A DNA stretch of 62,974 nucleotides, filler included, from Myxococcota bacterium (GTDB taxonomy: Bacteria > Myxococcota_C > UBA6777), in the NCBI GenBank assembly GCA_023150835.1. It is 9 parts of 9 records of this genome, joined end to end, with 100 filler letters (N's around TTAATTAATTAA, not from the genome) between each part and the next. Parts side by side here need not be neighbours in the genome. Positions count along the whole stretch, not along the records: positions 53,426 to 58,219 come from JAKLKB010000219.1; 8 more parts are not named here. The stretch is one strand, 5' to 3'. Each line of letters begins with the position of its first letter. The first letter of the stretch is position 1. The notes beneath the pieces are model-generated. The model did not search any database. It had not been told where the DNA came from and saw only the letters and a list, made by a program, of their open reading frames with translations. Of this stretch, positions 3,600-58,658 are shown piece after piece. The position numbers were made by a program, and so were the translations under genes.

Positions 3600-3727
3600 C
3601 TGCCTTCTCCTGCCCTCTCTCGCGGCTTTGGGGGACTGTTGCGAAACATACGCCGCTATGATAGCCAACTCCCCCCCGCTCGACAATAGAAGTCTTTCAC
3701 GAATTCAAACAAAGGACACTCACGCTG

Positions 3728-4858
3728 ATGATCCCACACACACACCGCTCTCTTTCTCCTCTGTTCATCCAACCCATCCACCGCTCTCTTTCGCTCTTTC
3801 TTCTCCTTGCCTTTCTGCTCGTACCACCCCTTCGACCCACCACTCCCCTCGCCCAAACTCCTCCTCTCCCCAAGATCCGTATCCTCCCCGAACCTCCCCT
3901 CTGGAGCTTCCATGCCCAACAAGCCGTCCTACACCTCGATCTCCACCTCCAAAGTACTCCCCAAGAACCCCTCTCCTTGCGCTTCGCCCAACTCTACGCC
4001 GCTTCCAAAGGCCAAACCCTTCACATCCACGTCTTTTCCAAAGACACCCTTCTCGCTTATGCCCGTCGCTTCGACTCCCAACAACGCGCTTGGCTCCCCC
4101 ACCACTCAACCGACCTCCCGCCCTCCAGCGATCTTGTCTTGTCCCTCCCTCCCCTCCGTTATCCACGCCATCAAACCCCCGATTCCTTGCTCCTCCGCCT
4201 TTACTTCCAACAAGGCCCCCGCGCCCTTCAACGCACCCTTTCCATCCAACCCCAGTCTCCCGCTCTTCCTCACCTCCGCTTTCCCGTCCGTGGCCGCTGG
4301 TGGGTCGCCAACGGACACGGACCCGCCGCACCCCACCGTCATCGGCTCCGCGAACCCTCCGCTCCCTTCCTTGCCCCCCAACGCTTTGCCCTCGATCTCT
4401 TGCGCATCGACCACAACAACCGCATCCATCGCGGCGCTCCCCACCAAAACGAAAGCTTCCTCGGATTCTCCGAACAAGTCTATGCCCCCGCTGACGGACA
4501 GATCCACTCCATCGAACGCCACCACCCCGACCCCCACCCCGGTCGACCCGACAAACAAAATCCCCTCGGAAACTACATCCTGATCCAACACACACACCAA
4601 CTCTTTTCCTTGCTCGCCCACCTCAAACAAGGCTCCATCCAAGTCGAACCCAAACAATCCGTTAAAGCTGGACAATGGATCGCCCGCGTCGGAAACAGCG
4701 GCGACGGCTCCACTCCCCACCTCCATTTCCAACTCCTGCGCTCCCCACAACCCGAATCCGCACCCTCTCTCCCTCCCCTCTTCTGGGGACTCTCCGCACC
4801 TCTCGGTACCTTCTCTCCCTTCTGCCCCCAAGACGGACAAATCGTCCTCGCTTTCTAA
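3728..4858 (+). CDS. M23-family metallopeptidase, probably exported
   Basis: VYAPADG, GNYILIQH, AHLKQGSIQV, VGNSGDGSTPHLHFQ; N-terminal hydrophobic stretch. Confidence 0.85.
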   Translation: MIPHTHRSLSPLFIQPIHRSLSLFLLLAFLLVPPLRPTTPLAQTPPLPKIRILPEPPLWSFHAQQAVLHLDLHLQSTPQEPLSLRFAQLYAASKGQTLHIHVFSKDTLLAYARRFDSQQRAWLPHHSTDLPPSSDLVLSLPPLRYPRHQTPDSLLLRLYFQQGPRALQRTLSIQPQSPALPHLRFPVRGRWWVANGHGPAAPHRHRLREPSAPFLAPQRFALDLLRIDHNNRIHRGAPHQNESFLGFSEQVYAPADGQIHSIERHHPDPHPGRPDKQNPLGNYILIQHTHQLFSLLAHLKQGSIQVEPKQSVKAGQWIARVGNSGDGSTPHLHFQLLRSPQPESAPSLPPLFWGLSAPLGTFSPFCPQDGQIVLAF

Positions 4859-7791: not shown

Positions 7792-9132
7792 TTATTCGCC
7801 TTGGCGTTTCAACGATGCTGGGATGCAATCAAGCCGCAACATCGATGCGGCATCTTCGCGCATAGCCAACAACTCCGCCCGTCCTTCGGAGACCATCACC
7901 ACCGCAGGACGCGCCACCCGATTGTACTGGCTCGCCATGCTGTATGTGTACGCTCCCGTTGACAAGAACGCCACAACATCATCCACCCGAATATGCGGAA
8001 GATACACATCTTTTTGCAACATATCCCCCGACTCACAACAACGACCCGAGATCGACCACAGCGTATCGGGCTTTTCATTCATCCGATTTGCCAAGGCCAC
8101 TTGGTATTTGGCGTTGTACAGCGCAAAGCGCGGATTGTCCGTCATCCCGCCATCCACGCTCGCATAATTGCGTACACCCTCGATCTCTTTGATGCTCTGC
8201 ACCGTGTACAACGTGACACCCGCTCGACCCACGATCGAACGCCCCGGCTCATCGCACAACAACGGCGGTTCCACCTCGTACTCTTCCGCCAGTTCCATCA
8301 CTCGCCGGCGCATCCGCGCAAGATGCTCGCCCACCGATGGCGGGACATCATCCTCCGTATAACGAATCCCGATCCCTCCCCCCATATTCAACTCATCCAA
8401 CGGCGCTCCCAACTCTTTTTGCACATACGCATAAAACCGCATCATCGACTCTACCGCCACCGAAAACGGCTTCAAATCGAAGATCTGCGAACCGATATGA
8501 CAGTGCAAACCCACCAGCCTCAATCGCGGATATCGCAAGATCTTCAACACCGCTTGTTCTGCCGCACCGCTCGCCAAATTAAACCCAAACTTCGAGTCCA
8601 CTTGTCCTGTCTGGATCGCTTGATGTGTCGAAGGCTTTACCCCGGGCGTCACCCGAATAAACACCCGCGCCTCTTTCTCCATCGCTTCCGCCATCTCCCC
8701 CAATCGCTCGATCTCTGCAAGGTTATCGATCACGATCCGACCGATCCCCATCTCCAACGCCAGCCGCAGATCCTCTCGCGTCTTTGCATTCCCGTGCATC
8801 AAGATCCGCTCCGCTGGAAAACCCGCCGCCCTCGCCGTCTCCAACTCCCCCCATGACGCCACATCCAAACCCATCTCTTCTTGTTCCATCAACCGACAAA
8901 AGCCTGTCGTCAAAAACGCCTTGCTTGCATAATACACCCGCGCTCGCGGATACTGCTCGATCTGCTGCTTGTACGCTCGGCAATTCCCCCTCACCACTTC
9001 TTCCAACAACACCACCAACGGACTCCCAAATCGTACCAGCAGATCCCGCACATCATGGCCCGCCAACGTCATCACTCCCGACTCATTCACCCCATAAATC
9101 GGCGGCTCCGTATACACCATCTCTTCCATCAT
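7792..9132 (-). CDS. lysA: diaminopimelate decarboxylase
   Basis: YYASKAF, DSKFG, GLHCHIGSQIF, EPGRSIVG, VDGGMTDNPR, GRCCESGD, TGAYTYSMASQYN; start placed at ATG 9132 after GAAGGGA. Confidence 0.95.
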   Translation of the reverse strand: MMEEMVYTEPPIYGVNESGVMTLAGHDVRDLLVRFGSPLVVLLEEVVRGNCRAYKQQIEQYPRARVYYASKAFLTTGFCRLMEQEEMGLDVASWGELETARAAGFPAERILMHGNAKTREDLRLALEMGIGRIVIDNLAEIERLGEMAEAMEKEARVFIRVTPGVKPSTHQAIQTGQVDSKFGFNLASGAAEQAVLKILRYPRLRLVGLHCHIGSQIFDLKPFSVAVESMMRFYAYVQKELGAPLDELNMGGGIGIRYTEDDVPPSVGEHLARMRRRVMELAEEYEVEPPLLCDEPGRSIVGRAGVTLYTVQSIKEIEGVRNYASVDGGMTDNPRFALYNAKYQVALANRMNEKPDTLWSISGRCCESGDMLQKDVYLPHIRVDDVVAFLSTGAYTYSMASQYNRVARPAVVMVSEGRAELLAMREDAASMLRLDCIPASLKRQGE

Positions 9133-10254: not shown

Positions 10255-10354
10255 NNNNNNNNNNNNNNNNNNNNNNNNNNNNNNNNNNNNNNNNNNNNTT
10301 AATTAATTAANNNNNNNNNNNNNNNNNNNNNNNNNNNNNNNNNNNNNNNNNNNN
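10255..10354. other. artificial contig linker (first of eight)
   Basis: N44-TTAATTAATTAA-N44, stops in all six frames; also 16095-16194, 27050-27149, 32529-32628, 37927-38026, 48319-48418, 53326-53425, 58220-58319. Confidence 0.99.
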
Positions 10355-16032: not shown

Positions 16033-16249
16033 ACGCGCTAGGTTAAGGTGGAAACACCGGATAGTCTAGCCTGATCGCCGTTTCTTTTGTCGCCNNNNNN
16101 NNNNNNNNNNNNNNNNNNNNNNNNNNNNNNNNNNNNNNTTAATTAATTAANNNNNNNNNNNNNNNNNNNNNNNNNNNNNNNNNNNNNNNNNNNNTTGGAC
16201 TGGTAGACAGAAACATCGGAGGAATGGACGTCTTGTGATGTCCCCTCTC

Positions 16250-16373
16250 AGACGAGATCCGCCCGTTGAGTGATCGTAAAAATGTAGGGGCAGCCCCCTG
16301 TGGCTGCCCAACCATCGGGCGGTTCGCGAACCGCCCCTACATCATGCGATCATACCTTACGCGGAGATCGTAT
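16250..16373. repeat. Repeat family C: GTAG-type REP doublet inside ~29-bp imperfect inverted repeats (REPIN-like)
   Basis: GTAGGGGCAGCCCCCTGTGGCTGCCC...GGGCGGTTCGCGAACCGCCCCTAC within ATACGARATCCGC.../...CGGATATCGTAT-like ends; copies 42257-42371, 53810-53930, 54384-54498, 58461-58584; single REPs near 58328 and 60879. Confidence 0.88.
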
Positions 16374-26950: not shown

Positions 26951-27149
26951 CCGCCTTTTCCTTTCTTTTCTACAAACCTACACCTTGATTCTTCCATTTT
27001 TGGGGGCCTGCCCCCAATCCCCCGCCATAGACTCTCGCCCCTTGACCCCNNNNNNNNNNNNNNNNNNNNNNNNNNNNNNNNNNNNNNNNNNNNTTAATTA
27101 ATTAANNNNNNNNNNNNNNNNNNNNNNNNNNNNNNNNNNNNNNNNNNNN

Positions 27150-32001: not shown

Positions 32002-33091
32002 CTTTTGCCCTCGCTATCTGTTGAAATCTCGCTTTTCAGAGTGGATGCGTCTGTGCTTTTGGGCGACGCCTAGGAGACATTTGCGATTTCAGATGCGACT
32101 TGCCGTTTTTTTGATTCTGAATCAATGTTTTTTTTTACCAAAAAAGCAGCGACTCGTTTGGGCACGGATCGATGGAACGCCGCTTGCCAAAAAATCCCCA
32201 CCGCCGCTTGCCAAAAAATCCCGATGCTCGTGGTATACCGAGCGGAGCCGCCGTTCGTGATATCCCAAGCGCAGCCGCCGCTGGAGAAAAAACGTCTGTT
32301 CGCTCCGCCGATACGGGGTGAAGGGAGCCGCGCTCCCTTCCGGGGTGTGGGGCAGCGCCCCATAGGCGTTAGGTGAAGCGGAGGAAAGCCCCCCACCCCA
32401 GCCCTCCCCCGTGAACAGGGGAGGGAGCGAAAGTCGGAAGCAGCGGGGATTTTGTTTTTTCATGACACACGCTGTATGCACGACGCGCAGACGCTGCCCG
32501 TTCCAACTTCCCCCCGTTCACGGGGGGANNNNNNNNNNNNNNNNNNNNNNNNNNNNNNNNNNNNNNNNNNNNTTAATTAATTAANNNNNNNNNNNNNNNN
32601 NNNNNNNNNNNNNNNNNNNNNNNNNNNNACCGCTGAAAAAGGCAGCGTCCATGTTGTTGAAGTCCTTGCGTCCGAGCTATCAGGGGTCATGTTCTTTGCT
32701 CCTTTGTGGTGAGGGCGAATTCTTGGTTACTTTGGAAGTCGATCTGCTCATTTTTTGGGGCGCTGCCCCATGCCCCGCAAGGGAGCGCATCTCCCTTGAC
32801 CCCGTATTTGGCGAAAAGATCACAGGTTTTTCAAGACAACGGCTTCGTCGCTTGATCGGATGCGAACACGGGTTTTTGGGAGCCGACTGCGCCGCTCTTC
32901 TCTTCTTGGATGAGAAATTCTACAAGTATCGGGGAGATTGGGATGGTGGGTGGAAAAATATTTTCTTTTTCCGAGGGAGTGGCTTATCTTCGTTGGGGTT
33001 TCTGTGTTTGCTTTGTCACAAAGGCTCTTGATCCAAGGAGAAAGCGATGTCGAAGCCAAAGAAGATCCGAGGTTGTCAAGATGGGGGTTAA

Positions 33092-37926: not shown

Positions 37927-38026
37927 NNNNNNNNNNNNNNNNNNNNNNNNNNNNNNNNNNNNNNNNNNNNTTAATTAATTAANNNNNNNNNNNNNNNNNN
38001 NNNNNNNNNNNNNNNNNNNNNNNNNN

Positions 38027-42118: not shown

Positions 42119-42391
42119 GATGAAGCCCTCGTCTTCCACAGGAAACCAACCGCCGCAACCAAGACGTACACGGCAGGTCGATGTCCAAACTTGAAGGTGT
42201 ACACAAATGTGCCATACTCGATCCAACGATGCAAAATCCTCCGTTTGGAGCGTCTAATACGAGATCCGCTCGTTGTGTTACCGTAAAAACGTAGGGGCAT
42301 CCCCCTGTGGCTGCCCAAGAATCGGGCGTCTACAAATGATGCTTTGTGTACACCTCTCACGGATATCGTTTAAAGCCCAACGCTCCCAAGA

Positions 42392-48318: not shown

Positions 48319-48553
48319 NNNNNNNNNNNNNNNNNNNNNNNNNNNNNNNNNNNNNNNNNNNNTTAATTAATTAANNNNNNNNNNNNNNNNNNNNNNNNNN
48401 NNNNNNNNNNNNNNNNNNAAACCCTCACCACTTCCGTCAATGTCAAGAAGGCCACCACTCGGCTGGCCGCACGAACCACCACCCTCACAACACAAAGAAA
48501 GGGCGGCGCTTCCTCCCCCCTCTAAAGAAGGGGGTCTCCGCGCCTTAAAAACG

Positions 48554-49711: not shown

Positions 49712-50082
49712 CCCGCTCCTCCCAACCCTCCTGATCCGCTCTTCCCCCTCCCTCTGATCTCCTCCACCCAAATTTCCCTTTGCCTTTAATACCGCTCTGT
49801 GTCTATAATGCCCTGCCTTGTGGCTTGCTTGGTCGCCGTCGACCTCCTTTCACAACATACGCCTCACCAAAAGAACAACATCGGGGTGAAAAAATTTTCC
49901 CACCCCGTCCGTCTTGAGGCGTCCTCTTGCCCAATCTGTGTCTGCCGAACTTGACTCGCGTTCCCAACCCGGCAACAAACGCCCGAAACGAACGCAACAA
50001 ACCTGCAACACAAACATCCGAACAGACGGCAGCCACACAAACCACTCAATACGCTGCCCCACATCCGATGGAGAAAAATGGA

Positions 50083-53000
50083 ATGTACAGTACCAAAAGA
50101 ATCGTTTTGATCTATATGGCTTTTTTTGCCTTGTTGATCGCTACCGCCTCCACCACCGCTTGTACCTGCGGTGAAGCCCCCTCCGCCGGCGTCGGTGAAC
50201 TCGCCACCAACCTCGACAACAACCAGATGATCTTCTCCAACATCCAAGTCGGACAACCCAGCACCAAAGAATTTCTCCTCTACAACAAAGGCCAAGTCGA
50301 CGTCCGTATCACCGAACTCGCCATCGATCGCGACCAAGGCAAGGTCTTCTCTATCATCAACAAACCTGAGATGCCCCTCACCCTCAAACCCGGCCTCAAC
50401 AACGCCGTCTCCGTCAAAGTCCAATTCCTCACCCAACAAACCGGCGACTTCTTCGCCCGCGTCAACATCTCCTCCGACGCAAATAACGTCGATGAAACCG
50501 GCTTTTTCGTCATCCGCCTCAATCACCAGATCCTCACCGCTGAACCTTTCTTTGATTGCGGAAAATCCCTCAACTTCGGCACCGTCCAAAAAGGCCAATC
50601 CAAAACCCTCGACTGCGCCATCTCCAACCGTGGCAACGCCGACCTCACCATCCGTGAAGTCGTATACGCCAAAGAAAAAGGCTCCGATGGTGACTTCAAG
50701 ATCCTTGAACCCAGTTTCCCCCTCACCATCAAACCCGAACAACCCGCTGTCACCTTCAAGATCGCCTACAACCCCTCCGATTATCCCCCCGCCGAAGACC
50801 AAGGCGAATTCAAACTCTTTACCAACATCTCCACCGAAAACGACGCCAACCGCAGCGGGATCAAAGTCGTCGGTGTCACCGCCGTCCCACTCGTCCAACT
50901 CGTCCCTTACTACGGCGATTGCCAAGACGACAACACCTGCCGCCGCATCGACAACAGCCTGACCTGCCAAGATGACGCCTTCAGCGGCAAAAAACTCTGC
51001 CTGCCCTCCACCCAAGGCAGCACTCCCACCTTGCTCTTCCCCCTCACCTCCAAAGGCAAAACCACCACCCGTCGATTCCTCATCCGCTCCAACGGCGACC
51101 TTGCCCTCGAAGTCAACAAAGTCGAACTCGACAGCAACAGCAGCCTTGACTTCCGCGTCGACGGCTCTTCCATCACCACACCCCTCAAGATCGAACCCAA
51201 ACAAGAAAAACTGGTCACCGTCGAATACACACCCTCCGATGATGTCGCTGACAGCGGCCTCGTCAAAGTCGAAAGCAACGCAGGAAACCTCGCCAGCGCA
51301 CCCATCCAACTCCAAGCCTCTTCTCGCGGATGCAACCTCGAAGTCAACCCCGACCCCAAACTCGGTATCAAGTTCACCGGACCCCGCTCCCAACGCATCA
51401 CCATCTACAACATCGGCAACGAAGGCTGTGTCATCGACAAGATCGCCCTCGAAAAAGGCGCTCCCTACTCCCTCATCCCCACACAGCCCGATGGCCAAGC
51501 CATCGCTCCCAACGGCTTGATCGAGTTCTTGCTCCGCTTCGATGCCAAAGACAAAAATGCCTACCCCGATAACCTCGTCATCACCAGCAGCGACCCCGAC
51601 GAACCCACCATCAAACTCCCCCTCAACGGCCAAATCGCCGGCAAATTCGAATGCGAACTCGAAGCCACTCCTTCGCAGCTTCAATTCCCCCTCACTCCCG
51701 TCGGTCGCAGCCGCCGACTCTCCGTCCAGATCTCCAACAAAAAAGGGTACGGCGACTGCATCATCGAACAAGCCAAACCCATCGTGATCAAAGGCACCAA
51801 CCCCGCCAACCACACCGCCTTTACCCTCGATACGCAACTCACCTATCCCATCGTCATCCCCTCGGGCGAAAGCCGCCGACTCGATATCAACTACACTCCC
51901 CCTCAAAGCGTCCCGGGATACCAAGGCGAACTCCAAATCCCCAGCAACGACGGCCAAAATCCACTCTTCAAGATCGCCCTCAACGGCGCTTCTGGCAACC
52001 TCTGCCTCGAAGTCGTCCCCCCGCAAATGGACTTCGGTTCCTCCAAAGTCGGATGCGCCACTCCTGATCGCGACATCAATATCTTTAACCTCGGTGCATC
52101 GGGCTGTAGCACCAGCATCACCGTCAGCAAAGTCGCCCTCGGACAAGGCACCTCTAGCGAGTTCCAACTGCGCAGCGTCCCCACACTCCCCAAAACCCTC
52201 GCCTCTGGCGACAACATCGTCATCAAAGCACGCTACAAACCTACCGACCTCGACGTCGACTTCGGTACCCTCGAAGTCGAAAACAACGTCCAAGGACAAT
52301 CCCCCCTCTCTATCCCTCTCGCCGGCGAAGGCGTCAACACCTCCGATCAAAAAGACGTGTTCAGCCAACTCCGTCAACCCAAAGCCGATATCCTCGTCGT
52401 CATCGACGACTCCTGCTCCATGTACGAAGAACAAACCAACTTGACCGCCAACTTCCAATCCTTCATCGCATGGGCCGTCCGCCTCAACGTCGACTACCAG
52501 ATCCTCGTCACCACCACAGACACCACCGGCCAAGCCCAATGGACCCCCATCAAGTGCAACCGCCCCACCGGCATCCCCGGCTGCGCTTGCCTTGGCACAG
52601 GCTCTCCCACCCGCATCATCACACAATCCACCCCCAACCCCGAAGCCGCCTTCACCGCAAACGCCAGCGTCGGTACCACTGGCGACGCCTCCGAAAAAGG
52701 CCTCGAAGCCGCTTACAAAGCACTCACTCCCCCCGCTACCACCAACGCAAACTGCAACAAAGACTTCTATCGCCCTGAAGCCTCCCTCTCCATCATCATC
52801 GTCTCCGACGAAAAAGATTACTCCCCTCAACCCGTCAACTTCTATGTCACCTTCTTCAAAAACCTCAAAGGCTTCCGCAACCTCGACTTGATCCGCCTTT
52901 CCTCCATCGTCGGACCCGCACCCAGCGGCTGCCGAAACCCCGCCACAGGAAACGCTGACTACGCCCCCCGCTACATCGAAGCCGCAAAACAACTCGGCGG

Positions 53001-53271
53001 CATCGACGAATCCATCTGCAACAACGACTGGGCCGGCACTCTCTCCAAGATCGGAGCCATCACCTTCGGCTACCGCAAGCAATTCTTCCTCAGCCGACAA
53101 GCCGACCCCGCCACCATCGCTGTCAAAGTCAACGGACAAGTCTCCCAACAAAGCGCCACCGACGGCTGGATCTACGACCCCATCACCAACTCCATCCTCT
53201 TCAGCGAAGGCAAGATCCCTCCCCCCGGTGCCGCCGTCGAAGTCCAATACAAAGCCGTCTGCCTCCAATAA
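50083..53271 (+). CDS. probable lipoprotein with tandem Ig-like (choice-of-anchor D-like) domains and a C-terminal VWA-like domain
   Basis: Hydrophobic signal then ACTC; repeated DFG..V...I.N.G...L.I units; DILVVIDDSCSM MIDAS-like motif. Confidence 0.85.
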   Translation: MYSTKRIVLIYMAFFALLIATASTTACTCGEAPSAGVGELATNLDNNQMIFSNIQVGQPSTKEFLLYNKGQVDVRITELAIDRDQGKVFSIINKPEMPLTLKPGLNNAVSVKVQFLTQQTGDFFARVNISSDANNVDETGFFVIRLNHQILTAEPFFDCGKSLNFGTVQKGQSKTLDCAISNRGNADLTIREVVYAKEKGSDGDFKILEPSFPLTIKPEQPAVTFKIAYNPSDYPPAEDQGEFKLFTNISTENDANRSGIKVVGVTAVPLVQLVPYYGDCQDDNTCRRIDNSLTCQDDAFSGKKLCLPSTQGSTPTLLFPLTSKGKTTTRRFLIRSNGDLALEVNKVELDSNSSLDFRVDGSSITTPLKIEPKQEKLVTVEYTPSDDVADSGLVKVESNAGNLASAPIQLQASSRGCNLEVNPDPKLGIKFTGPRSQRITIYNIGNEGCVIDKIALEKGAPYSLIPTQPDGQAIAPNGLIEFLLRFDAKDKNAYPDNLVITSSDPDEPTIKLPLNGQIAGKFECELEATPSQLQFPLTPVGRSRRLSVQISNKKGYGDCIIEQAKPIVIKGTNPANHTAFTLDTQLTYPIVIPSGESRRLDINYTPPQSVPGYQGELQIPSNDGQNPLFKIALNGASGNLCLEVVPPQMDFGSSKVGCATPDRDINIFNLGASGCSTSITVSKVALGQGTSSEFQLRSVPTLPKTLASGDNIVIKARYKPTDLDVDFGTLEVENNVQGQSPLSIPLAGEGVNTSDQKDVFSQLRQPKADILVVIDDSCSMYEEQTNLTANFQSFIAWAVRLNVDYQILVTTTDTTGQAQWTPIKCNRPTGIPGCACLGTGSPTRIITQSTPNPEAAFTANASVGTTGDASEKGLEAAYKALTPPATTNANCNKDFYRPEASLSIIIVSDEKDYSPQPVNFYVTFFKNLKGFRNLDLIRLSSIVGPAPSGCRNPATGNADYAPRYIEAAKQLGGIDESICNNDWAGTLSKIGAITFGYRKQFFLSRQADPATIAVKVNGQVSQQSATDGWIYDPITNSILFSEGKIPPPGAAVEVQYKAVCLQ

Positions 53272-53935
53272 TCCCCCAACCCGACATACAGCCTCTTATC
53301 CTTCCCCCCTGCCTCTTATCCTTCCNNNNNNNNNNNNNNNNNNNNNNNNNNNNNNNNNNNNNNNNNNNNTTAATTAATTAANNNNNNNNNNNNNNNNNNN
53401 NNNNNNNNNNNNNNNNNNNNNNNNNTCCCCCGTGAACAGGGGAGGGAGCGAAAGTCGGAAGCATCGGGGATTTTGTTTTTTCATGACGCACGCTGTATGC
53501 ACCAAATGCAGACGCTGCCCGTTCCAACTTCCCCCCGTTGGCCGGGGGGATTGAGGGGGGGAGAAAAAAAAAAGGCGATCAAGACCGACTCTACGAGGTT
53601 TCCACCTTAACAAGGCGCGTATGGGGCGCTGCCCCATACCCCGCAAGGGAACTTCGTCCCCTTGACCCCGTATCGGCGAAACGATCCGTCGTACTCCAAA
53701 CCAACGACTGCCTCGCTTGAACGAGCGCGAACACGGGAATCTTTGGAGCGGCAAGATACGGCGAAAAAGAAATGAGAAAAAGTCTTTGATTTTTCGGATC
53801 AAAGAAATGATACGAAATTCGCTCGTTGTTAACGAAAAAAAGTAGGGGCAGCCCCCTGTGGCTGCCCAACTCCAGGGCGTCTACAGCGGAGCGTACCTAC
53901 CCTAAACCACACATCTCTCGGATATCGTATGATTG

Positions 53936-54007
53936 CGCTAGAGCCCAGACTCGAACTGGGAACGAACGGTTAACAGCCGAATGTGATTACCTTTTCACCA
54001 CTCTAGC
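53936..54007 (-). tRNA. tRNA-Asn(GUU), atypical, CCA not encoded
   Basis: GCTAGAG TG GTGA AAAGGTAA TCAC A TTCGG CTGTTAA CCGTT CGTT CCCAG TTCGAGT CTGGG CTCTAGC G; hand-folded cloverleaf with only 3 anticodon-stem pairs. Confidence 0.8.
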
Positions 54008-54010
54008 GGA

Positions 54011-54084
54011 TGCCCTCGGGGGGATTTGAACCCCCAACTCACCGGTTAAAAGCCGAGTATGATCAGCCGTTTCACTACGAAGGC
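54011..54084 (-). tRNA. tRNA-Lys(UUU), atypical, CCA not encoded
   Basis: GCCTTCG TA GTGA AACGGCTGA TCAT A CTCGG CTTTTAA CCGGT GAGTT GGGGG TTCAAAT CCCCC CGAGGGC A. Confidence 0.85.
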
Positions 54085-54104
54085 AAAAGGGAGAATTTTT
54101 ACGA

Positions 54105-54145
54105 AAATAAAAAAGCCGTCTGAGCGATTCACCCAGACGGCTTTT
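54105..54145 (-). terminator. intrinsic terminator / attenuator upstream of the tRNAs
   Basis: AAAAGCCGTCTGGG TGAATCG CTCAGACGGCTTTTTTATTT: long stem followed by a U-tract. Confidence 0.85.
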
Positions 54146-54347
54146 GATTCCGACATTGCGGAAGAAAGCGTACAGGCGAAGGGTCAGGTGGATGATGTTT
54201 GCTGGTCTGATTGGCGCGCATCATCTTGCGAACGATGAGGATACAAAGATTGTGACGGCGTTGGCAAACGACCAAGGTGTGGCAGTTTTGGGGATGGACG
54301 ACACCGATGGCGGGGAGGACTTGTGTTTGGTTATGTTGGCGTGTCAT
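54129..54347 (-). CDS. putative leader peptide (72 aa)
   Basis: AAAGG then ATG at 54347; ...KMMRANQTSKHHPPDPSP...KPSG*, stop codon lies in the terminator loop. Confidence 0.6.
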   Translation of the reverse strand: MTRQHNQTQVLPAIGVVHPQNCHTLVVCQRRHNLCILIVRKMMRANQTSKHHPPDPSPVRFLPQCRNQKPSG

Positions 54348-54792
54348 CGACAAAACCTTTGAAGAAAAATGCGCTGTTTCGTAATACGAAATCCGCAGGG
54401 TGTGTCACCGTAACGGTGTAGGGGCAGCCCCCTGTGGCTGCCCAAGAATCGGGCGTCTACGCGATATCTTACGATCACACATCACTCGGATATCGTATAA
54501 GTCGAAAACGGCGCGTGTGATCGATTTTGGCGTTTCTACGCAGATCGAAAAAGCGAGTTCAAAAAAAACCAAAAAAGATTTTGCCCTCGATCGCTTTCTC
54601 ACAATTGACAACAAGCTGACAAAAAACCCCGTGTTCGCAGCACTTCAAGCGACAGGGTCATCAGTGTGAAAAACGATGCTGTCTTCGCCAAACACGGGGT
54701 CAAGGGGCGACAGTCTATGGCGGCGCGTGGTACCTCGCCCCACACAAACGAACAAACAAAAACAAATCAAAAGAAGAGGAGCGAAAGAAGAA

Positions 54793-56697
54793 TTAACGTT
54801 CGAGGTAGGTATAGCTGGTGAGACCTTCGTCCAAGGCTTCGACGGCGATGGCGCGGATCTCTTCGGAGAGGTGGGCATATTCGAGTTTTTTGTGGAGGGC
54901 TTCGCGCATTTGTTTGGGATCGTAGCCGACTTCGGACAAGAGTTGGTCGGCGGTGTTGCCTTTGGTGACTTGGGTGATGCGCCAGCTACCGTCGTAGAGT
55001 TCGATATTTGCGGCGTCGGTGCTGCCGAAGAGGTTGTGGATATCGCCCAAGGTTTCTTGGTAAGCGCCGATCAGAAAGACGCCGAGGAGATAATCGCTGT
55101 TGGGGAGGGGGAGATGGACGGGAAGGGTTGAGGTGATCCCGCCTTGTTCGACGTAGTGGTCGATGCGACCGTCCGAATCGCAGGTGAGGTCTTCGAGGCG
55201 AGCGCGGCGGACGGGGGGTTCGTTGAGTCGTTCGAGCGGCATGATCGGAAAGACTTGATCGATCGCCCAGATATCGGGCATGGAGCGAAAGACGGAGAAG
55301 TTGCAAAAGTATTTGTCGGCCAAGATATCGCCCAACTCGTCCAACAGGTCGCGGTGTCCGCGATTTTTGGGTTCCAGCGAGCGGTACACTTTGCGACAGA
55401 CAGCAAAGAACAATTCGTCTAGCCAAGCGCGTTCTTCGAGCGACAGCATCCCGTGACCAAACAGCGAACGTCCTTCGCTGTGGAAGTGCTGCGCTTCGTA
55501 GTAAGCCTCGATCGGGGGGCGTTCATCGTCTTCTTCGGCGAGGACGTGCATGGTTTTGACGACGTAGTGGGCATCTTTGGGGGGAGCATCACCGCTCCAT
55601 TCGGGGGCGGTTTCGAGGGCTGTGACGTTGGTGACCAGCACAGCGTGGTGAGCGGTCAAAGCCCGCCCTGACTCGGTGATGATGTTGGGGTGCGGCAGTG
55701 AAAACTCCGAACAGACGCGCTCAAGGGCTTCGACGATATTTTCTGCGTACTGTTCTGCACCGTAGTTCATCGAAAAAAAGCTGCGTCCACGACCGCCTTC
55801 ATAGTCGACAGCGAGTCCACCACCGACGTCCATTGTGTCGATGGGTACGCCTTGTTGACGAAGCTGCACGTAATAACGCGCTGCTTCGCTGATGCCCTGC
55901 TGGATATCCCGCACATTTGATATCTGCGAACCCATGTGAAAGTGCAACAGCCGCAAACTCGACAACATCCCCGCACGACGGGCCTCTTCGGTCAGATCCA
56001 ACAACTGCCGCGCTGACAGTCCAAACTTCGCCTTTTCTCCGCCTGTATTTTGCCACTTGCCCACCCCCAGCGAAGACAAGCGCAGACGCACACCCAACAA
56101 CGGCTCGATCCCCAACAGTCGGGACTCTTCCACCACCAATTGAAACTCCGCCGACTTTTCGATCACCAAGTAGGTATTCAACCCCATCGCTCGGCCCAAC
56201 AGCGCAAGGCGGATGTATTCGCGATCTTTGTAGCCGTTGCAGACGATCGTACATCCCGGCTGCGCTGCCAACGCCAAGATCGCGATCAGCTCGGGCTTAC
56301 TGCCTGCTTCCAAACCCAGACGCTCACCGCCGCGTTTGACCAGCTCGTTGACCACGCTTGCCCGTTGATTGACTTTGACGGGATACACGCAGGTATAGCG
56401 CCCTTTGTAGTTTGCGTTCTTCATCATCTTGGCGAACGCATCGTTGAGGGACGATACACGCTTGCCCAAGATGTCCGAAAAACGCATCAAGATCGGCAAC
56501 TTCAAGCCCATCCGTTGCGCTTCGGCCACCACTTCGGCCAATGGGATCCGCGCCCCTTTGTTCGCTGTCGGTAGCGCACACACGCGCCCTTGCACATCCA
56601 CATCAAAAAAACCTTCGCTCCAATGGCGCACATTATACAAACGTCGTGCAGACTCGATATCCCAATGGCTGAGCATCTTTTTCACTTTCACCTTCAT
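54793..56697 (-). CDS. speA: biosynthetic arginine decarboxylase
   Basis: VYPVKVNQ, GLEAGSKPEL, CNGYKD, HFHMGSQI, TESGRA, DLTCDSDG, GAYQETLGDIHNLFG. Confidence 0.96.
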   Translation of the reverse strand: MKVKVKKMLSHWDIESARRLYNVRHWSEGFFDVDVQGRVCALPTANKGARIPLAEVVAEAQRMGLKLPILMRFSDILGKRVSSLNDAFAKMMKNANYKGRYTCVYPVKVNQRASVVNELVKRGGERLGLEAGSKPELIAILALAAQPGCTIVCNGYKDREYIRLALLGRAMGLNTYLVIEKSAEFQLVVEESRLLGIEPLLGVRLRLSSLGVGKWQNTGGEKAKFGLSARQLLDLTEEARRAGMLSSLRLLHFHMGSQISNVRDIQQGISEAARYYVQLRQQGVPIDTMDVGGGLAVDYEGGRGRSFFSMNYGAEQYAENIVEALERVCSEFSLPHPNIITESGRALTAHHAVLVTNVTALETAPEWSGDAPPKDAHYVVKTMHVLAEEDDERPPIEAYYEAQHFHSEGRSLFGHGMLSLEERAWLDELFFAVCRKVYRSLEPKNRGHRDLLDELGDILADKYFCNFSVFRSMPDIWAIDQVFPIMPLERLNEPPVRRARLEDLTCDSDGRIDHYVEQGGITSTLPVHLPLPNSDYLLGVFLIGAYQETLGDIHNLFGSTDAANIELYDGSWRITQVTKGNTADQLLSEVGYDPKQMREALHKKLEYAHLSEEIRAIAVEALDEGLTSYTYLER

Positions 56698-57239
56698 TCA
56701 CGCAAAAAGAATCATTCAACAACAAACTGACACATCCGATCGCTTTTGTGGGGTTCCACCCCACACCCCGCAAGGGAGCACCGCCCCCTTGACCCCGTGT
56801 TGATCGCTTGACCCTCCGCATCTCAAACCTACGGATATCCCAGCACGGGCGGTTGCGAACACGGCTTTTTTTCTCAACGAGTGACTCCTGCAAACGAAAG
56901 AAATATCCTTACCATCACGACAAACCACCCCTCTCCCCCACCTTCCGCGCGACACTCTTAAAAGAACCGCCCCCCCCTGTCAAGCGAAACTCGCGCCCCC
57001 TTCTGCCGTCTCGCCCAAATCCGCCTTCCATCACACTTTCGCGCCTCGCCCGCTTTCGCCTTCCATCACACTTCCGCTCCTCGCCCAAAGCCCCTGATCG
57101 TGCTGCCCCTACCCAAAAAAAAGCCTCTGTGCAATATAAGAGCGGCCAGAAGCTCCCCTCCGTGTGTTGGGGATGTTTGCTCTCCGCAAAAACCAAACGA
57201 GTCAACGCGCAACAAAGTGTCCAGCGCAAGAGGTGTTTG

Positions 57240-58219
57240 ATGGACTGGAGCGAAGGATTGCTGTTTGAAAGATACGAATTTCTCCAGCGCCTTGGTGAAG
57301 GCGGGCAGGCAGAAGTTTGGGAAGTCAAACTGCGCGGCGTTGGTGGCTTCACAAAGCATATCGCGCTCAAAGTCCTACGCAACAACACAGAACAACGCCA
57401 CGAAGCACAACAACGCCTCATCTCCGAAGCACGGATCGTCTCTGAGATGCACCATCCCCATATCGTCGAGATCTACGATGTCGGAGGCACCGAACACAGC
57501 GTCTACATCGCCATGGAACTCGTGCGCGGCATCGATCTCGATTCGCTGCTCCAAATACACCTCCAAAAAAGACAAAAACCCCTCCCTTGGCCTTTGGCCT
57601 CTCAACTGATCGCTGATACTTGCAAAGGACTCCATCACGCCCATCAATTCGCCAGCAAAGAACACAAGCCCTTCTCTCTCGTCCACCGCGATCTCAAACT
57701 CAAAAACCTCATCCTCGATCAAAACGGCTTCATCAAGATCATCGACTTTGGCATCGCACGCGTCAGAGATATCTCCCCCACCACCCACAGCGCCAAACTA
57801 CGCGGTACACCCGCCTTTATGTCGCCCGAACAGATCCGCAACGAATCCATCGATCATCGCTCCGACCTCTTCTCTCTCGGTGTGATCTTTTATGCCCTCC
57901 TTTGTGGATGTCTCCCCTTCGACAACAAAGATATCTTTTCCACCCTCTACCAGATCGTCTCCAAACAACCCGATCCCCCCCGTCAAAAAAACCCAAACAT
58001 CCCCCCAGAAATCGAACACATCATCCTCTCTCTTCTCGCCAAAGATCCCGCTCTACGCTTTGATTCCGCCTGCGCCGTGCAACACGCGATCCAGATCATC
58101 CTGCACAAACACCAGATACGCGTCGACTACGAAGACATCGCCCAATTCACCCGAAACCTCCAAAACCAACCCGCCACACTCACACAAGACAACCCCACTC
58201 TACCCGAACAACTCGGCAT
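57240..58219 (+). CDS. Ser/Thr protein kinase, 3'-truncated
   Basis: LGEGGQAEV, IALKVL, HRDLKLKN, DFGIAR, GTPAFMSPEQ. Confidence 0.92.
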
Positions 58220-58380
58220 NNNNNNNNNNNNNNNNNNNNNNNNNNNNNNNNNNNNNNNNNNNNTTAATTAATTAANNNNNNNNNNNNNNNNNNNNNNNNN
58301 NNNNNNNNNNNNNNNNNNNTCCGACACGTAGGGGCAACCATGCGCGGTTGCCCTCGCTGAGAAGTGTTGCCTCTTGGGGT

Positions 58381-58458: not shown

Positions 58459-58658
58459 TGATACGAAATCCGCCCGTTGTGTGATCGTAAAAATGTAGGG
58501 GCAGCCCCCCGTGGCTGCCCAAACACAGGGCGGTTCGCGAACCGCCCCTACATGATGCGATCACACATCTCGCGGATATCGTATGATTTGTTTGTGTGCA
58601 AGAGCACAAGGAGGCCACACCATCTCCATTTGCAGCCCCCTACGATCTCTGCCACCTG

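What the first reader, a model, noticed from the sequence alone, without database searches (positions are those of the whole stretch)
53936..54347. Leader peptide and attenuator placed in front of two tRNAs: candidate translation-stress-induced tRNA supply
Seen: 72-codon ORF (…MMRANQTSKHHPPDPSP…) whose stop lies in the loop of a strong intrinsic terminator, then about 20 nt later tRNA-Lys(UUU) and, 3 nt on, tRNA-Asn(GUU). The PPD codons (CACCUGAC) can pair with the terminator 5' arm and loop (GUCUGGGUG; 8 bp with one bulge), giving a candidate antiterminator. Established: leader ORF plus terminator is classical attenuation; stress-induced tRNA operons exist in cyanobacteria; Lys(UUU) is cut by PrrC and PARIS AriB, Asn(GUU) by colicin E5. 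Inference: full leader translation allows termination, while stalling upstream of PPD allows read-through to backup tRNAs.
Basis: partly seen in the sequence, partly recalled or inferred. Interest (0 to 1): 0.78.

Follow-up and report, generated by a model that had tools for sequence, protein, structure and literature searches.

The report
Small gene and terminator before tRNAs
A small, probably translated gene that ends inside a strong transcription stop signal sits just in front of a tRNA gene cluster in three uncultured bacteria, so tRNA output may depend on how well ribosomes keep up with transcription, though this has not been tested.

Summary
The anatomy is real. On the minus strand, a 72-codon ORF (54347-54129) has its stop codon inside a strong hairpin plus U-run (54145-54111, -24.3 kcal/mol). 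tRNA-Lys(UUU) follows 26 nt later, then tRNA-Asn(GUU) 3 nt after that.

The unit is flanked by two copies of a ~120-nt MITE. A relative, metagenome contig L158, has the same unit without either MITE and with two more tRNAs, Arg(GCG) and Met(CAU). A third, much more diverged ORF homologue (P0002, 52-57% identity) reads through the same hairpin into tRNA-Lys. ORF-hairpin-tRNA is therefore a conserved module.

The ORF is probably translated. Six of 9 substitutions against L158 are synonymous (P=0.02), and the frame is kept in P0002. Codon usage is ambiguous.

The hairpin-tRNA spacer is the least conserved segment and holds no promoter-like site.

My best reading (confidence about 0.35) is a pyrBI-type gate. 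A ribosome that keeps up with RNA polymerase masks the hairpin, and transcription runs on into the tRNAs. A lagging ribosome allows termination. The "backup tRNA" idea could not be tested because no whole genome is held.

The parts
54499..54613 (-). Conserved non-coding block upstream of the unit. It is the candidate promoter region, with a weak TTGAAC (54562-54557), an 18-nt spacer and TAGAAA (54538-54533), preceded by T-rich tracts.
   Evidence: It is 89.7% identical to L158 228-343. Homology with L158 starts here, just after the speA terminator. The hexamers are kept and the substitutions fall in the spacer (read from alignment A2). The site is below the threshold of the promoter scan, so this is inference only.
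54384..54498 (-). MITE copy B, inserted between the conserved block and the ORF. Its inner hairpin lacks the T-run that the other four copies have.
   Evidence: Direct repeat with copy A. The family has 5 copies in the window and terminal inverted repeats. L158 has a clean empty site here.
54129..54347 (-). Small ORF of 72 codons plus TGA (MTRQHN...PPDP...LPQCRNQKPSG). An AAGG Shine-Dalgarno-like motif at 54359-54356 lies 8 nt before the ATG.
   Evidence: ORF listing. Nine differences from L158, 6 of them synonymous (P=0.021). A homologue, P0002, has E=2e-8. RNA-library contigs from two studies cover 54190-54374 and 54175-54378. Codon usage is ambiguous.
54180..54191 (-). PPDP codons (P53 P54 D55 P56), invariant in all three ORF sequences. 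They form a polyproline-type motif about 35-40 nt upstream of the hairpin base.
   Evidence: Alignment A3. That PPD is a motif needing EF-P is recalled knowledge. The effect of EF-P on coupling and on intrinsic terminators is from PMC5021804 (abstract read).
54111..54145 (-). Intrinsic-terminator hairpin (16 bp, loop AAU). It contains codons Q68 to G72 and the stop codon, and is followed by a U-run extending to about 54100.
   Evidence: The 14-bp core is identical in L158 and only the top pair and loop differ. P0002's tail is this hairpin read in a shifted frame.
54085..54110 (-). Spacer between hairpin and tRNA-Lys (26 nt, T- and A-rich).
   Evidence: Least conserved segment: 19 of 26 positions identical to L158, with 1 gap. 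No promoter-like site. P0002 has Ala-Pro residues where the window has GTAAAAA, so that A-rich box is not kept.
54011..54084 (-). tRNA-Lys(UUU), discriminator A, no encoded CCA.
   Evidence: It is 72 of 74 identical to L158.
53936..54007 (-). tRNA-Asn(GUU), discriminator G. Its anticodon stem has two U.U mismatches.
   Evidence: It is 71 of 72 identical to L158, where one of the mismatches is an A-U pair.
53810..53930 (-). MITE copy A, abutting the 3' end of tRNA-Asn. Its hairpin (53867-53846) plus T7 run is terminator-like. Homology with L158 ends here; L158 continues with tRNA-Arg(GCG) and tRNA-Met(CAU).

Best explanation
This is a conserved three-part module: a small translated ORF, an intrinsic terminator that overlaps the end of that ORF, and a tRNA gene cluster. 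The cluster is Lys-UUU and Asn-GUU here, with Arg-GCG and Met-CAU as well in a relative.

Transcription most likely starts in the conserved block upstream of the ORF. In this genome it then runs through MITE copy B. It reaches the tRNAs only by reading through the hairpin, because there is no usable promoter in the 26-nt spacer.

The last five sense codons and the stop codon lie inside the hairpin. A ribosome that follows RNA polymerase closely therefore covers the 5' arm and prevents the hairpin from forming, so the tRNAs are transcribed. If the ribosome lags, the hairpin forms and transcription stops. Lagging could come from poor initiation, general translation trouble, or a stall at the conserved PPDP motif about 35-40 nt upstream.

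This is the pyrBI/pyrE type of attenuation, in which a ribosome occludes a terminator, placed in front of tRNA genes. It couples output of this tRNA cluster positively to ongoing translation.

Shown: the anatomy, the conservation of the module, the lack of a promoter-like site, and the substitution pattern. Inferred: translation of the ORF, co-transcription of the tRNAs, and the gating itself.
For: (1) The module is conserved while its surroundings are not.
- L158 matches the window only over 54613-54498 and 54378-53929.
- The window has speA upstream. L158 has convergent hypB, hypA and hypE-type genes downstream.
- P0002's C-terminal tail is the hairpin and T-run read in a shifted frame (score 49, reached by 0 of 2000 shuffles). 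It ends in ...LPS*, which matches the first bases of tRNA-Lys.

(2) The ORF is probably coding.
- Six of 9 differences from L158 are synonymous (P=0.021). The other five frames give 0 to 3 synonymous of the 7 differences first listed.
- The start MTRQHN and the frame are kept in P0002 over 62-64 residues, with in-frame gaps.
- A Shine-Dalgarno-like AAGG lies 8 nt before the ATG and is kept in L158.
- RNA-library contigs from two studies cover the ORF.

(3) The hairpin is under constraint. Its 14-bp core has 0 changes, while the adjacent spacer has 6 mismatches and 1 gap in 26 positions.

(4) There is no promoter between hairpin and tRNA.
- No promoter-like site was found there in the window or in L158.
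- The spacer is the fastest-changing segment.
- The A-rich box is replaced in P0002.

(5) MITE copy B lies inside the proposed transcription unit and is the only one of 5 copies without a T-run after its hairpin.

(6) The geometry matches published work.
- PMC4824070 (passages read): a hairpin needs 10-15 nt of free RNA after the A site to fold. Termination fell from about 90% to under 10% with the stop codon 5 bp from the terminator. The pyrBI terminator lies inside its leader ORF.
- PMC5021804 (abstract read): ribosome stalling at polyproline uncouples translation from transcription and causes premature intrinsic termination.
Against: - No transcript data show read-through into the tRNAs, and no transcription start site is known.
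- The coding evidence rests on one pairwise comparison of 9 substitutions. The variant RNA contig in run X20 is the same allele as L158, so it is not independent.
- Codon usage is ambiguous. The ORF sits at the 3.4th percentile of real in-frame gene pieces, and 16% of wrong-frame pieces score as high.
- AlphaFold and the protein atlas give nothing.
- P0002 is known only as a protein, so its hairpin, spacer and tRNA are inferred from its amino acids. It is also visible only because a gene caller found the frame open, which is an ascertainment bias.
[quoted passage not shown] A 2-nt indel after LPQ shifts the frame in P0002, which could equally mean that the ORF end is unconstrained.
- Stop codons close to or overlapping terminators also occur at ordinary genes, with no regulatory role.
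- Promoters of this lineage may not resemble the sigma-70 consensus that was scanned.
- The candidate upstream promoter matches only 8 of 12 positions, below the scan's threshold.
Confidence: 0.35

Rival explanations
1. Ordinary adjacency. A small gene of unknown function, or a small RNA, has its own efficient terminator. The tRNA cluster downstream has its own unrecognised promoter, or is a weakly expressed or decaying accessory cluster. The hairpin simply insulates the two units and nothing is regulated.
For: - Terminator-like hairpins abutting tRNAs occur elsewhere: 6 of 139 cluster-first tRNAs, including hairpins 3-5 nt before tRNA-Trp and tRNA-Tyr in unrelated loci.
- A short A-rich box (GTAAAAA) in the spacer is kept between the window and L158.
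- The tRNAs show signs of relaxed constraint. Stem mismatches differ between the two close relatives. L158's tRNA-Met is not seen by Rfam. The Arg and Met tRNAs are missing after tRNA-Asn on the window's contig.
Against: - Twenty-six nt cannot hold a whole promoter. The -35 position falls in the hairpin's 3' arm and matches the consensus at no more than 3 of 6 positions (my reading).
- No promoter-like site was found in either genome.
- The spacer is the least conserved segment, and the A-rich box is not kept in P0002.
- The three parts stay together across 52-57% protein identity and in different contexts.
Confidence: 0.3
2. Non-coding leader. The ORF is not translated. The roughly 230-nt region is the 5' leader of the tRNA operon or a separate small RNA. 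The hairpin acts as a constitutive partial terminator or as a 3'-end stabiliser after RNase P cuts at tRNA-Lys.
For: - Codon usage is atypical.
- Pfam gives no match and the atlas recognition score is low. An exhaustive search of 1.84 billion proteins finds only two relatives.
- A 2-nt indel changes the frame before the hairpin in P0002.
- This genome makes long shadow ORFs, so an open frame means little.
Against: - Six of 9 substitutions are synonymous in this frame only (P=0.021).
- The frame and start are kept over 62-64 residues in P0002, with in-frame gaps.
- An AAGG motif sits at the right distance from the ATG.
- Rfam has no match for the leader.
- The fold of the leader apart from the hairpin is unremarkable.
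Confidence: 0.15
3. The PPD codons pair with the terminator's 5' arm as an antiterminator. Full translation allows termination, and stalling upstream of PPD allows read-through. Translation stress therefore induces backup tRNAs.
For: - The ORF, terminator and tRNAs are a conserved unit.
- The PPDP codons are invariant in all 3 sequences.
- An alternative fold of the 5' arm with upstream RNA (54180-54165, not the PPD codons) is predicted before the 3' arm is made. The one substitution in it, G to A, keeps the pair.
Against: - The PPD duplex is only -10.4 kcal/mol, against -24.3 for the terminator.
- The best partner, at -14.2, is reached by 1059 of 2000 and 481 of 2000 shuffles.
- The stop codon lies inside the hairpin, so a ribosome that finishes the ORF masks the terminator instead of freeing it (geometry; PMC4824070).
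- At 72 codons the ORF is long for a leader of this type.
- The first Asn codon is codon 6, so a shortage of these tRNAs would stall the ribosome far upstream.
- The cited cyanobacterial operon is controlled by a repressor, not by attenuation.
Confidence: 0.05

Closest known systems
pyrBI (pyrL) and rph-pyrE attenuators of Escherichia coli
   Same: An ORF runs into or through an intrinsic terminator. Whether the hairpin forms depends on how closely the leading ribosome follows RNA polymerase, and no antiterminator helix is needed. PMC4824070 (passages read) describes the pyrBI terminator as lying inside the 135-bp leader gene.
   Different: - The genes downstream here are tRNAs, not pyrimidine enzymes.
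- No U-rich polymerase pause region was identified.
- The ORF is 72 codons, and its sequence, not just its presence, looks conserved.
- Nothing has been tested experimentally.
trp/his/leu/pheL-type leader-peptide attenuators
   Same: A small ORF upstream of a hairpin plus U-run terminator, within a leader.
   Different: - No antiterminator above chance.
- The stop codon is inside the terminator rather than upstream of it.
- There is no run of regulatory codons.
- The ORF is several times longer.
Anabaena sp. PCC 7120 trn operon (long tRNA array induced by translational stress; PMC8421152)
   Same: A tRNA gene cluster whose expression is linked to the state of translation.
   Different: [quoted passage not shown] Here there are 2 to 4 tRNAs behind an ORF and a terminator.
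Phage tRNAs that counter anticodon nucleases (PARIS AriB and T5 tRNA-Lys, PMC11464382; PMC10264068)
   Same: The cluster includes tRNA-Lys(UUU), and its tRNAs look accessory and somewhat atypical.
   Different: - There were 0 exact matches of either tRNA pattern in IMG/VR.
- The anticodon loops are the common ones.
- The context is chromosomal.
- I saw these papers only as search listings and abstract starts.
Correia-like MITEs with terminator hairpins
   Same: The flanking ~120-nt elements have terminal inverted repeats, an inner hairpin with a T-run, many copies, and empty sites in a relative.
   Different: They are passengers around the module, not part of its conserved core.

Membership tests
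Intrinsic (Rho-independent) terminator | G+C-rich stem-loop directly followed by a U-run on the transcribed strand | tested here: met
   A 16-bp stem at -24.3 kcal/mol, followed by UUUUUUAUUUU. The other strand gives a weaker hairpin (-17.1) with a poorer tail.
Intrinsic (Rho-independent) terminator | Transcripts end at the U-run | not testable with these tools
   Only assembled contigs of RNA libraries were available, and they cannot show 3' ends.
pyrBI/pyrE-type attenuator (ribosome occlusion of a terminator) | A translated ORF extends into or through the terminator hairpin | tested here: met
   The stop codon 54131-54129 is inside the hairpin 54145-54111. The same holds in L158. P0002 reads through the hairpin. 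Translation itself is inferred.
pyrBI/pyrE-type attenuator (ribosome occlusion of a terminator) | Downstream genes depend on read-through, with no promoter of their own | tested here: inconclusive
   No promoter-like site was found and the spacer is poorly conserved. Only a sigma-70 consensus was scanned, and no transcription start data exist.
pyrBI/pyrE-type attenuator (ribosome occlusion of a terminator) | Polymerase pause sites that set the ribosome-polymerase distance | not tested
   No pause prediction was made and no conspicuous U-rich tract was noted upstream of the hairpin.
trp-type leader-peptide attenuator | An antiterminator helix that competes with the terminator | tested here: not met
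The best partner of the 5' arm is -14.2 kcal/mol, reached by 1059 of 2000 and 481 of 2000 shuffles.
trp-type leader-peptide attenuator | A short leader ORF whose stop lies upstream of the terminator, with clustered regulatory codons | tested here: not met
   The ORF has 72 codons and its stop is inside the hairpin. The Asn, Lys, Arg and Met codons are scattered; Asn is at codons 6, 21, 33, 46 and 67.
[quoted passage not shown] | Arrays of many tRNA genes (up to 43) with repressor-bound repeats in the promoter | tested here: not met
   There are 2 tRNAs on this contig and 4 in L158. The definition is from PMC8421152. The 9-nt repeat signature was not searched.
MITE (flanking elements) | Short non-coding element with terminal inverted repeats, many copies, and an empty site in a relative | tested here: met
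   Five copies in the window. The terminal inverted repeats were read from alignment A1. L158 lacks both copies cleanly.

The most novel reading that the evidence does not exclude
The module is a self-regulating tRNA supply switch. The Asn (codon 67) and Lys (codon 69) codons lie 2 nt before, and inside, the base of the hairpin; P0002 has Met-Lys at the same place. A ribosome starved for exactly the tRNAs encoded downstream, whether through depletion, lack of charging or cleavage by an anticodon nuclease, would stall on top of the terminator's 5' arm. That would force read-through into the Lys, Asn, Arg and Met tRNA genes. It would be the first attenuator in which tRNA genes sense the shortage of their own products.
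Probability: 0.08. Interest if true: 0.85.

Novelty: new variant of a known kind. Interest (0 to 1): 0.5.

Why it matters
Bacterial tRNA genes are generally thought to be controlled at their promoters, through growth rate, ppGpp or repressors. My four literature searches found no case in which a translated ORF and an overlapping terminator gate a tRNA cluster.

If the gate works as proposed, it couples tRNA output directly, in cis, to how well ribosomes are translating. It would also extend the pyrBI-type mechanism to stable-RNA genes.

Even if it is not regulatory, the conserved pairing of an orphan small ORF with an atypical tRNA cluster that includes the rare Arg(GCG) is a defined, testable unit in an uncultured activated-sludge lineage.

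Tried and rejected
- **Whole-genome tRNA census and relatives.** No genome is held for this window. The control genomes gave no handle in the right phylum.
- **Synteny through speA.** The best hits were about 54% identical Gammaproteobacteria, with no close relative.
- **Strict tRNA-pair pattern in metagenomes.** 0 hits. The lenient pattern gave 84 stretches, 80 of them loci, but only L158 is related. The rest are 0.77 or less identical to our tRNAs and show no ORF or leader similarity.
- **Viral origin.** 0 exact matches for either tRNA pattern in viral contigs.
- **Protein searches.** Word-index searches with the ORF and with P0002 returned only the queries themselves. Pfam returned nothing for the ORF.
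- **Protein atlas.** Recognition 1151, best score 0.86, no family.
- **AlphaFold on 3 sequences.** Mean pLDDT 61.8 with one predicted helix. Not usable.
- **The plus-strand ORF 54144-54362.** Six of the 7 first-listed substitutions would be non-synonymous in it. Rejected.
- **The internal promoter-like site 54267-54238.** It matches 9 of 12 positions, with 1 site found against 0.8 expected. Its -10 first base is changed in L158. Rejected.
- **tRNA bit scores as a sign of accessory status.** The background loci are themselves tRNA arrays scoring from about 30 to 79 bits, so 55-57 is low but not an outlier. Not used.
- **Survey of stop-to-terminator distances in the window.** Too noisy to use.
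- **RNA-library contigs.** Depth over the hairpin and tRNAs (53906-54225) was at most 2.6 in all four runs, and no listed contig piece joins the ORF to the tRNAs. These are assemblies, tRNAs are poorly captured, and a hole proves nothing.
- **Earlier notes searched by sequence.** Nothing found.
- **Supplementary files of the papers.** Not opened. They may hold distance and termination tables that bear on the geometry argument.
Full report
**1. What is there**

The window is nine contigs joined by N runs with a TTAATTAATTAA linker. The finding lies on the 4794-nt contig 53426-58219. No whole genome is held for it. Earlier notes of this scan call the assembly an uncultured Myxococcota; I could not verify that.

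On the minus strand the order is:
- an arginine decarboxylase gene, 56697-54793 (Pfam), with its own long hairpin and T-run;
- a non-coding block, 54613-54499;
- a ~115-nt repeat, 54498-54384;
- an ORF, 54347-54129;
- a hairpin, 54145-54111, with a U-run;
- 26 nt of spacer;
- tRNA-Lys(UUU), 54084-54011, then TCC, then tRNA-Asn(GUU), 54007-53936;
- a second copy of the repeat, 53930-53810.

The hairpin is a 16-bp stem at -24.3 kcal/mol. Two of its pairs are G.U, so the plus-strand version is weaker (-17.1), and the long U-run is on the minus strand. It is therefore a terminator for transcription running towards the tRNAs. It occurs only once in the window.

**2. The flanking repeats are MITEs**

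- The hairpin inside the repeat occurs five times across different contigs, against 0 expected.
- Aligned copies share about 115-120 nt bounded by terminal inverted repeats.

**3. Relatives**

- Synteny through speA found nothing closer than about 54% identity.
- A strict tRNA-pair pattern had no metagenome match.
- A lenient pattern gave 84 stretches, 80 of them loci. Only one, L158, is a relative, with tRNAs 97% and 99% identical. All others are 77% or less.
- L158 aligns with the window over 54613-54498 and 54378-53929 only.
- L158 lacks both MITE copies cleanly. After tRNA-Asn it carries tRNA-Arg(GCG) and tRNA-Met(CAU), and it is followed by convergent hypB, hypA and hypE-type genes.
- The block-ORF-hairpin-tRNA unit is therefore the same in two different chromosomal settings.

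**4. Is the ORF real?**

Evidence against, or uninformative:
- Word-index searches found only the ORF itself, and Pfam found nothing.
- Codon usage is ambiguous. The ORF frame is the best of six frames, but it sits at the 3.4th percentile of real in-frame gene pieces, and 16% of wrong-frame pieces score as high.
- The genome makes very long shadow ORFs, so an open frame means little.
- AlphaFold and the protein atlas were uninformative.

Evidence for:
- An exhaustive HMMER search of 1.84 billion representatives found one more protein, P0002 (86 aa, E=2e-8, 52-57% identical over residues 1-64).
- Against L158, the 72 codons differ at 9 positions. Six changes are synonymous, and the other three are P19A, S49R and V59I. 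Given 7 transitions and 2 transversions, six or more synonymous changes has P=0.021 under neutrality.
- No other frame has more than 3 synonymous among the 7 differences first seen.
- Those 7 came from an RNA-library contig of run X20. It carries the L158 allele, so it is not independent of the L158 comparison.
- P0002 keeps the start MTRQHN and the frame, with in-frame gaps. PPDP and LPQ are invariant.
- RNA-library contigs from two studies cover 54190-54374 (exact match) and 54175-54378. The tool warns that such libraries can contain DNA.

I put translation of the ORF at about 0.7.

**5. The third genome**

- P0002's last 24 residues do not match our protein. They match the hairpin and T-run translated in a shifted frame (KAVWV..FF.F..), with score 49, reached by 0 of 2000 shuffles.
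- P0002 ends in LPS*, which is what the end of the spacer and the first bases of tRNA-Lys encode.
- So the hairpin and a tRNA-Lys about 26 nt after it are inferred for that locus too.
- There the ORF runs through the hairpin, because a 2-nt indel after LPQ shifts the frame.
- Where the window has GTAAAAA in the spacer, P0002 has Ala-Pro codons, which cannot spell that box.
- All of this is inferred from amino acids. The DNA could not be fetched.

**6. Conservation by segment, window against L158**

| Segment | Identity or changes |
|---|---|
| Upstream block | 89.7% |
| ORF | 95.8% |
| Hairpin | 33 of 35 identical, both changes at the top pair and loop, none in the 14-bp core |
| Spacer | 73% |
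| tRNA-Lys | 97.3% |
| tRNA-Asn | 98.6% |

- The spacer is the least constrained part.
- No sigma-70-like site lies in the spacer in either genome.
- The one promoter-like hit inside the ORF (54267-54238) loses the first base of its -10 hexamer in L158.
- A weak TTGAAC-N18-TAGAAA in the conserved block keeps both hexamers while its spacer varies (alignment A2). It is below the scan's threshold, so it is only a candidate.
- MITE copy B lies between that block and the ORF. It is the only one of five copies without a T-run after its hairpin. That fits transcription passing through it, but it is a single observation.

**7. The antiterminator**

- Folding the RNA before the 3' arm exists pairs the 5' arm with 54180-54165 instead.
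- That duplex, at -14.2, is reached by 1059 of 2000 shuffles of the 202 nt upstream, and by 481 of 2000 shuffles of the proximal 80 nt.
- No antiterminator is supported.

**8. Mechanism**

- The hairpin base is at 54145. Codons Q68 to G72 and the stop codon (54131-54129) lie inside the hairpin. N67 is 2 nt before it.
- PMC4824070 (passages read) reports that a hairpin needs 10-15 nt of free RNA beyond the ribosomal A site to fold.
- The same paper reports that a terminator a few bp from a stop codon is almost fully repressed. Termination fell from about 90% to under 10% when the stop was moved to 5 bp from the terminator.
- It also reports that full terminator function needed more than 27 nt in their system, and that the pyrBI terminator lies inside its leader ORF.
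- Here the distance is negative. A ribosome that keeps pace with the polymerase must therefore block the hairpin, and a lagging ribosome lets it form.
- The invariant PPDP codons (54191-54180) lie about 35-40 nt before the hairpin base, far enough for the hairpin to fold if a ribosome stalls there.
- PMC5021804 (abstract read) shows that stalling at polyproline uncouples translation from transcription and causes premature intrinsic termination.
- This gives a pyrBI-type gate in which efficient translation switches the tRNAs on.
- I rate it 0.35, because translation, co-transcription and gating are all inferred.

**9. Rivals**

- Ordinary adjacency with a hidden promoter or a decaying tRNA cluster: 0.30.
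- Non-coding leader: 0.15.
- A bolder variant: stalling at N67 or K69, on top of the hairpin, induces the very tRNAs that are lacking. I give this 0.08.

**10. Are these backup tRNAs?**

This could not be tested without the genome. There are hints that the cluster is accessory:
- Stem mismatches differ between the two close relatives.
- L158's tRNA-Met is not seen by Rfam.
- The Arg(GCG) anticodon is absent among 44 Arg tRNAs of 600 background tRNAs.
- The Arg and Met tRNAs are missing after MITE copy A on the window's contig.

Against a phage origin or nuclease evasion:
- Neither tRNA pattern matches any viral contig.
- Both anticodon loops are the common ones.

**11. Background and precedent**

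- A hairpin plus U-run within 70 nt upstream was found for 9 of 594 tRNAs, and for 6 of 139 cluster-first tRNAs, in the 78 unrelated loci. Ours is the strongest.
- The Anabaena trn operon is controlled through promoter repeats and a repressor, not by attenuation (PMC8421152, passages read).
- Searches for attenuator-controlled tRNA genes found none. This covers only the held open-access library.

**Verdict.** The anatomy is real and conserved. The most likely reading is a new variant of a known kind, and it is untested.

Noticed in passing
window 16288-16309, 42295-42316, 53846-53867, 54422-54443, 58499-58520 (element about 115-120 nt around each): A MITE family with terminal inverted repeats and an inner hairpin. 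L158 has clean empty sites for the two copies that flank the tRNA unit. Four of the five copies carry a T-run after the hairpin. The copy at 54384-54498 does not.
   Followed up: partly
window 10255-10354, 16095-16194, 27050-27149, 32529-32628, 37927-38026, 48319-48418, 53326-53425, 58220-58319: Eight N-run linkers, each with TTAATTAATTAA in the middle, so the window is nine separate contigs joined artificially. Neighbourhood across these points means nothing.
   Followed up: yes
window 15983, 16431, 27038, 32792, 53658, 54695, 56785: The short motif CCCCTTGACCCCG occurs 7 times (at most 1 mismatch) against 0.13 expected, on both strands and once at a contig end. It is probably part of another dispersed repeat.
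   Followed up: no
L158 825-897 and 904-974: tRNA-Arg with anticodon GCG, which none of the 44 Arg tRNAs in the 78 unrelated loci has. Next to it is a tRNA-Met(CAU) that ARAGORN calls but Rfam does not find at E<=0.1.
   Followed up: partly
L101 (tRNA-Trp at 3658-3731), L146, L160; L093 (tRNA-Tyr at 8260-8343), L095: Unrelated metagenome loci with strong hairpins plus U-runs (-17 to -20 kcal/mol) only 3-5 nt upstream of a tRNA. Terminator-like hairpins abutting tRNAs therefore recur in other lineages.
   Followed up: no
window 54499-54613: The conserved upstream block holds three near-repeats containing CGATC (AAAGCGATCG, TTTTCGATCT, AAATCGATCA) and long T tracts. This could be an operator or an UP-like region.
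   Followed up: no
window 49864-53271: A 1134-aa minus-strand ORF completely overlaps the 1114-aa plus-strand ORF. Long shadow ORFs are common in this genome, so an open frame alone is weak evidence of a gene.
   Followed up: no
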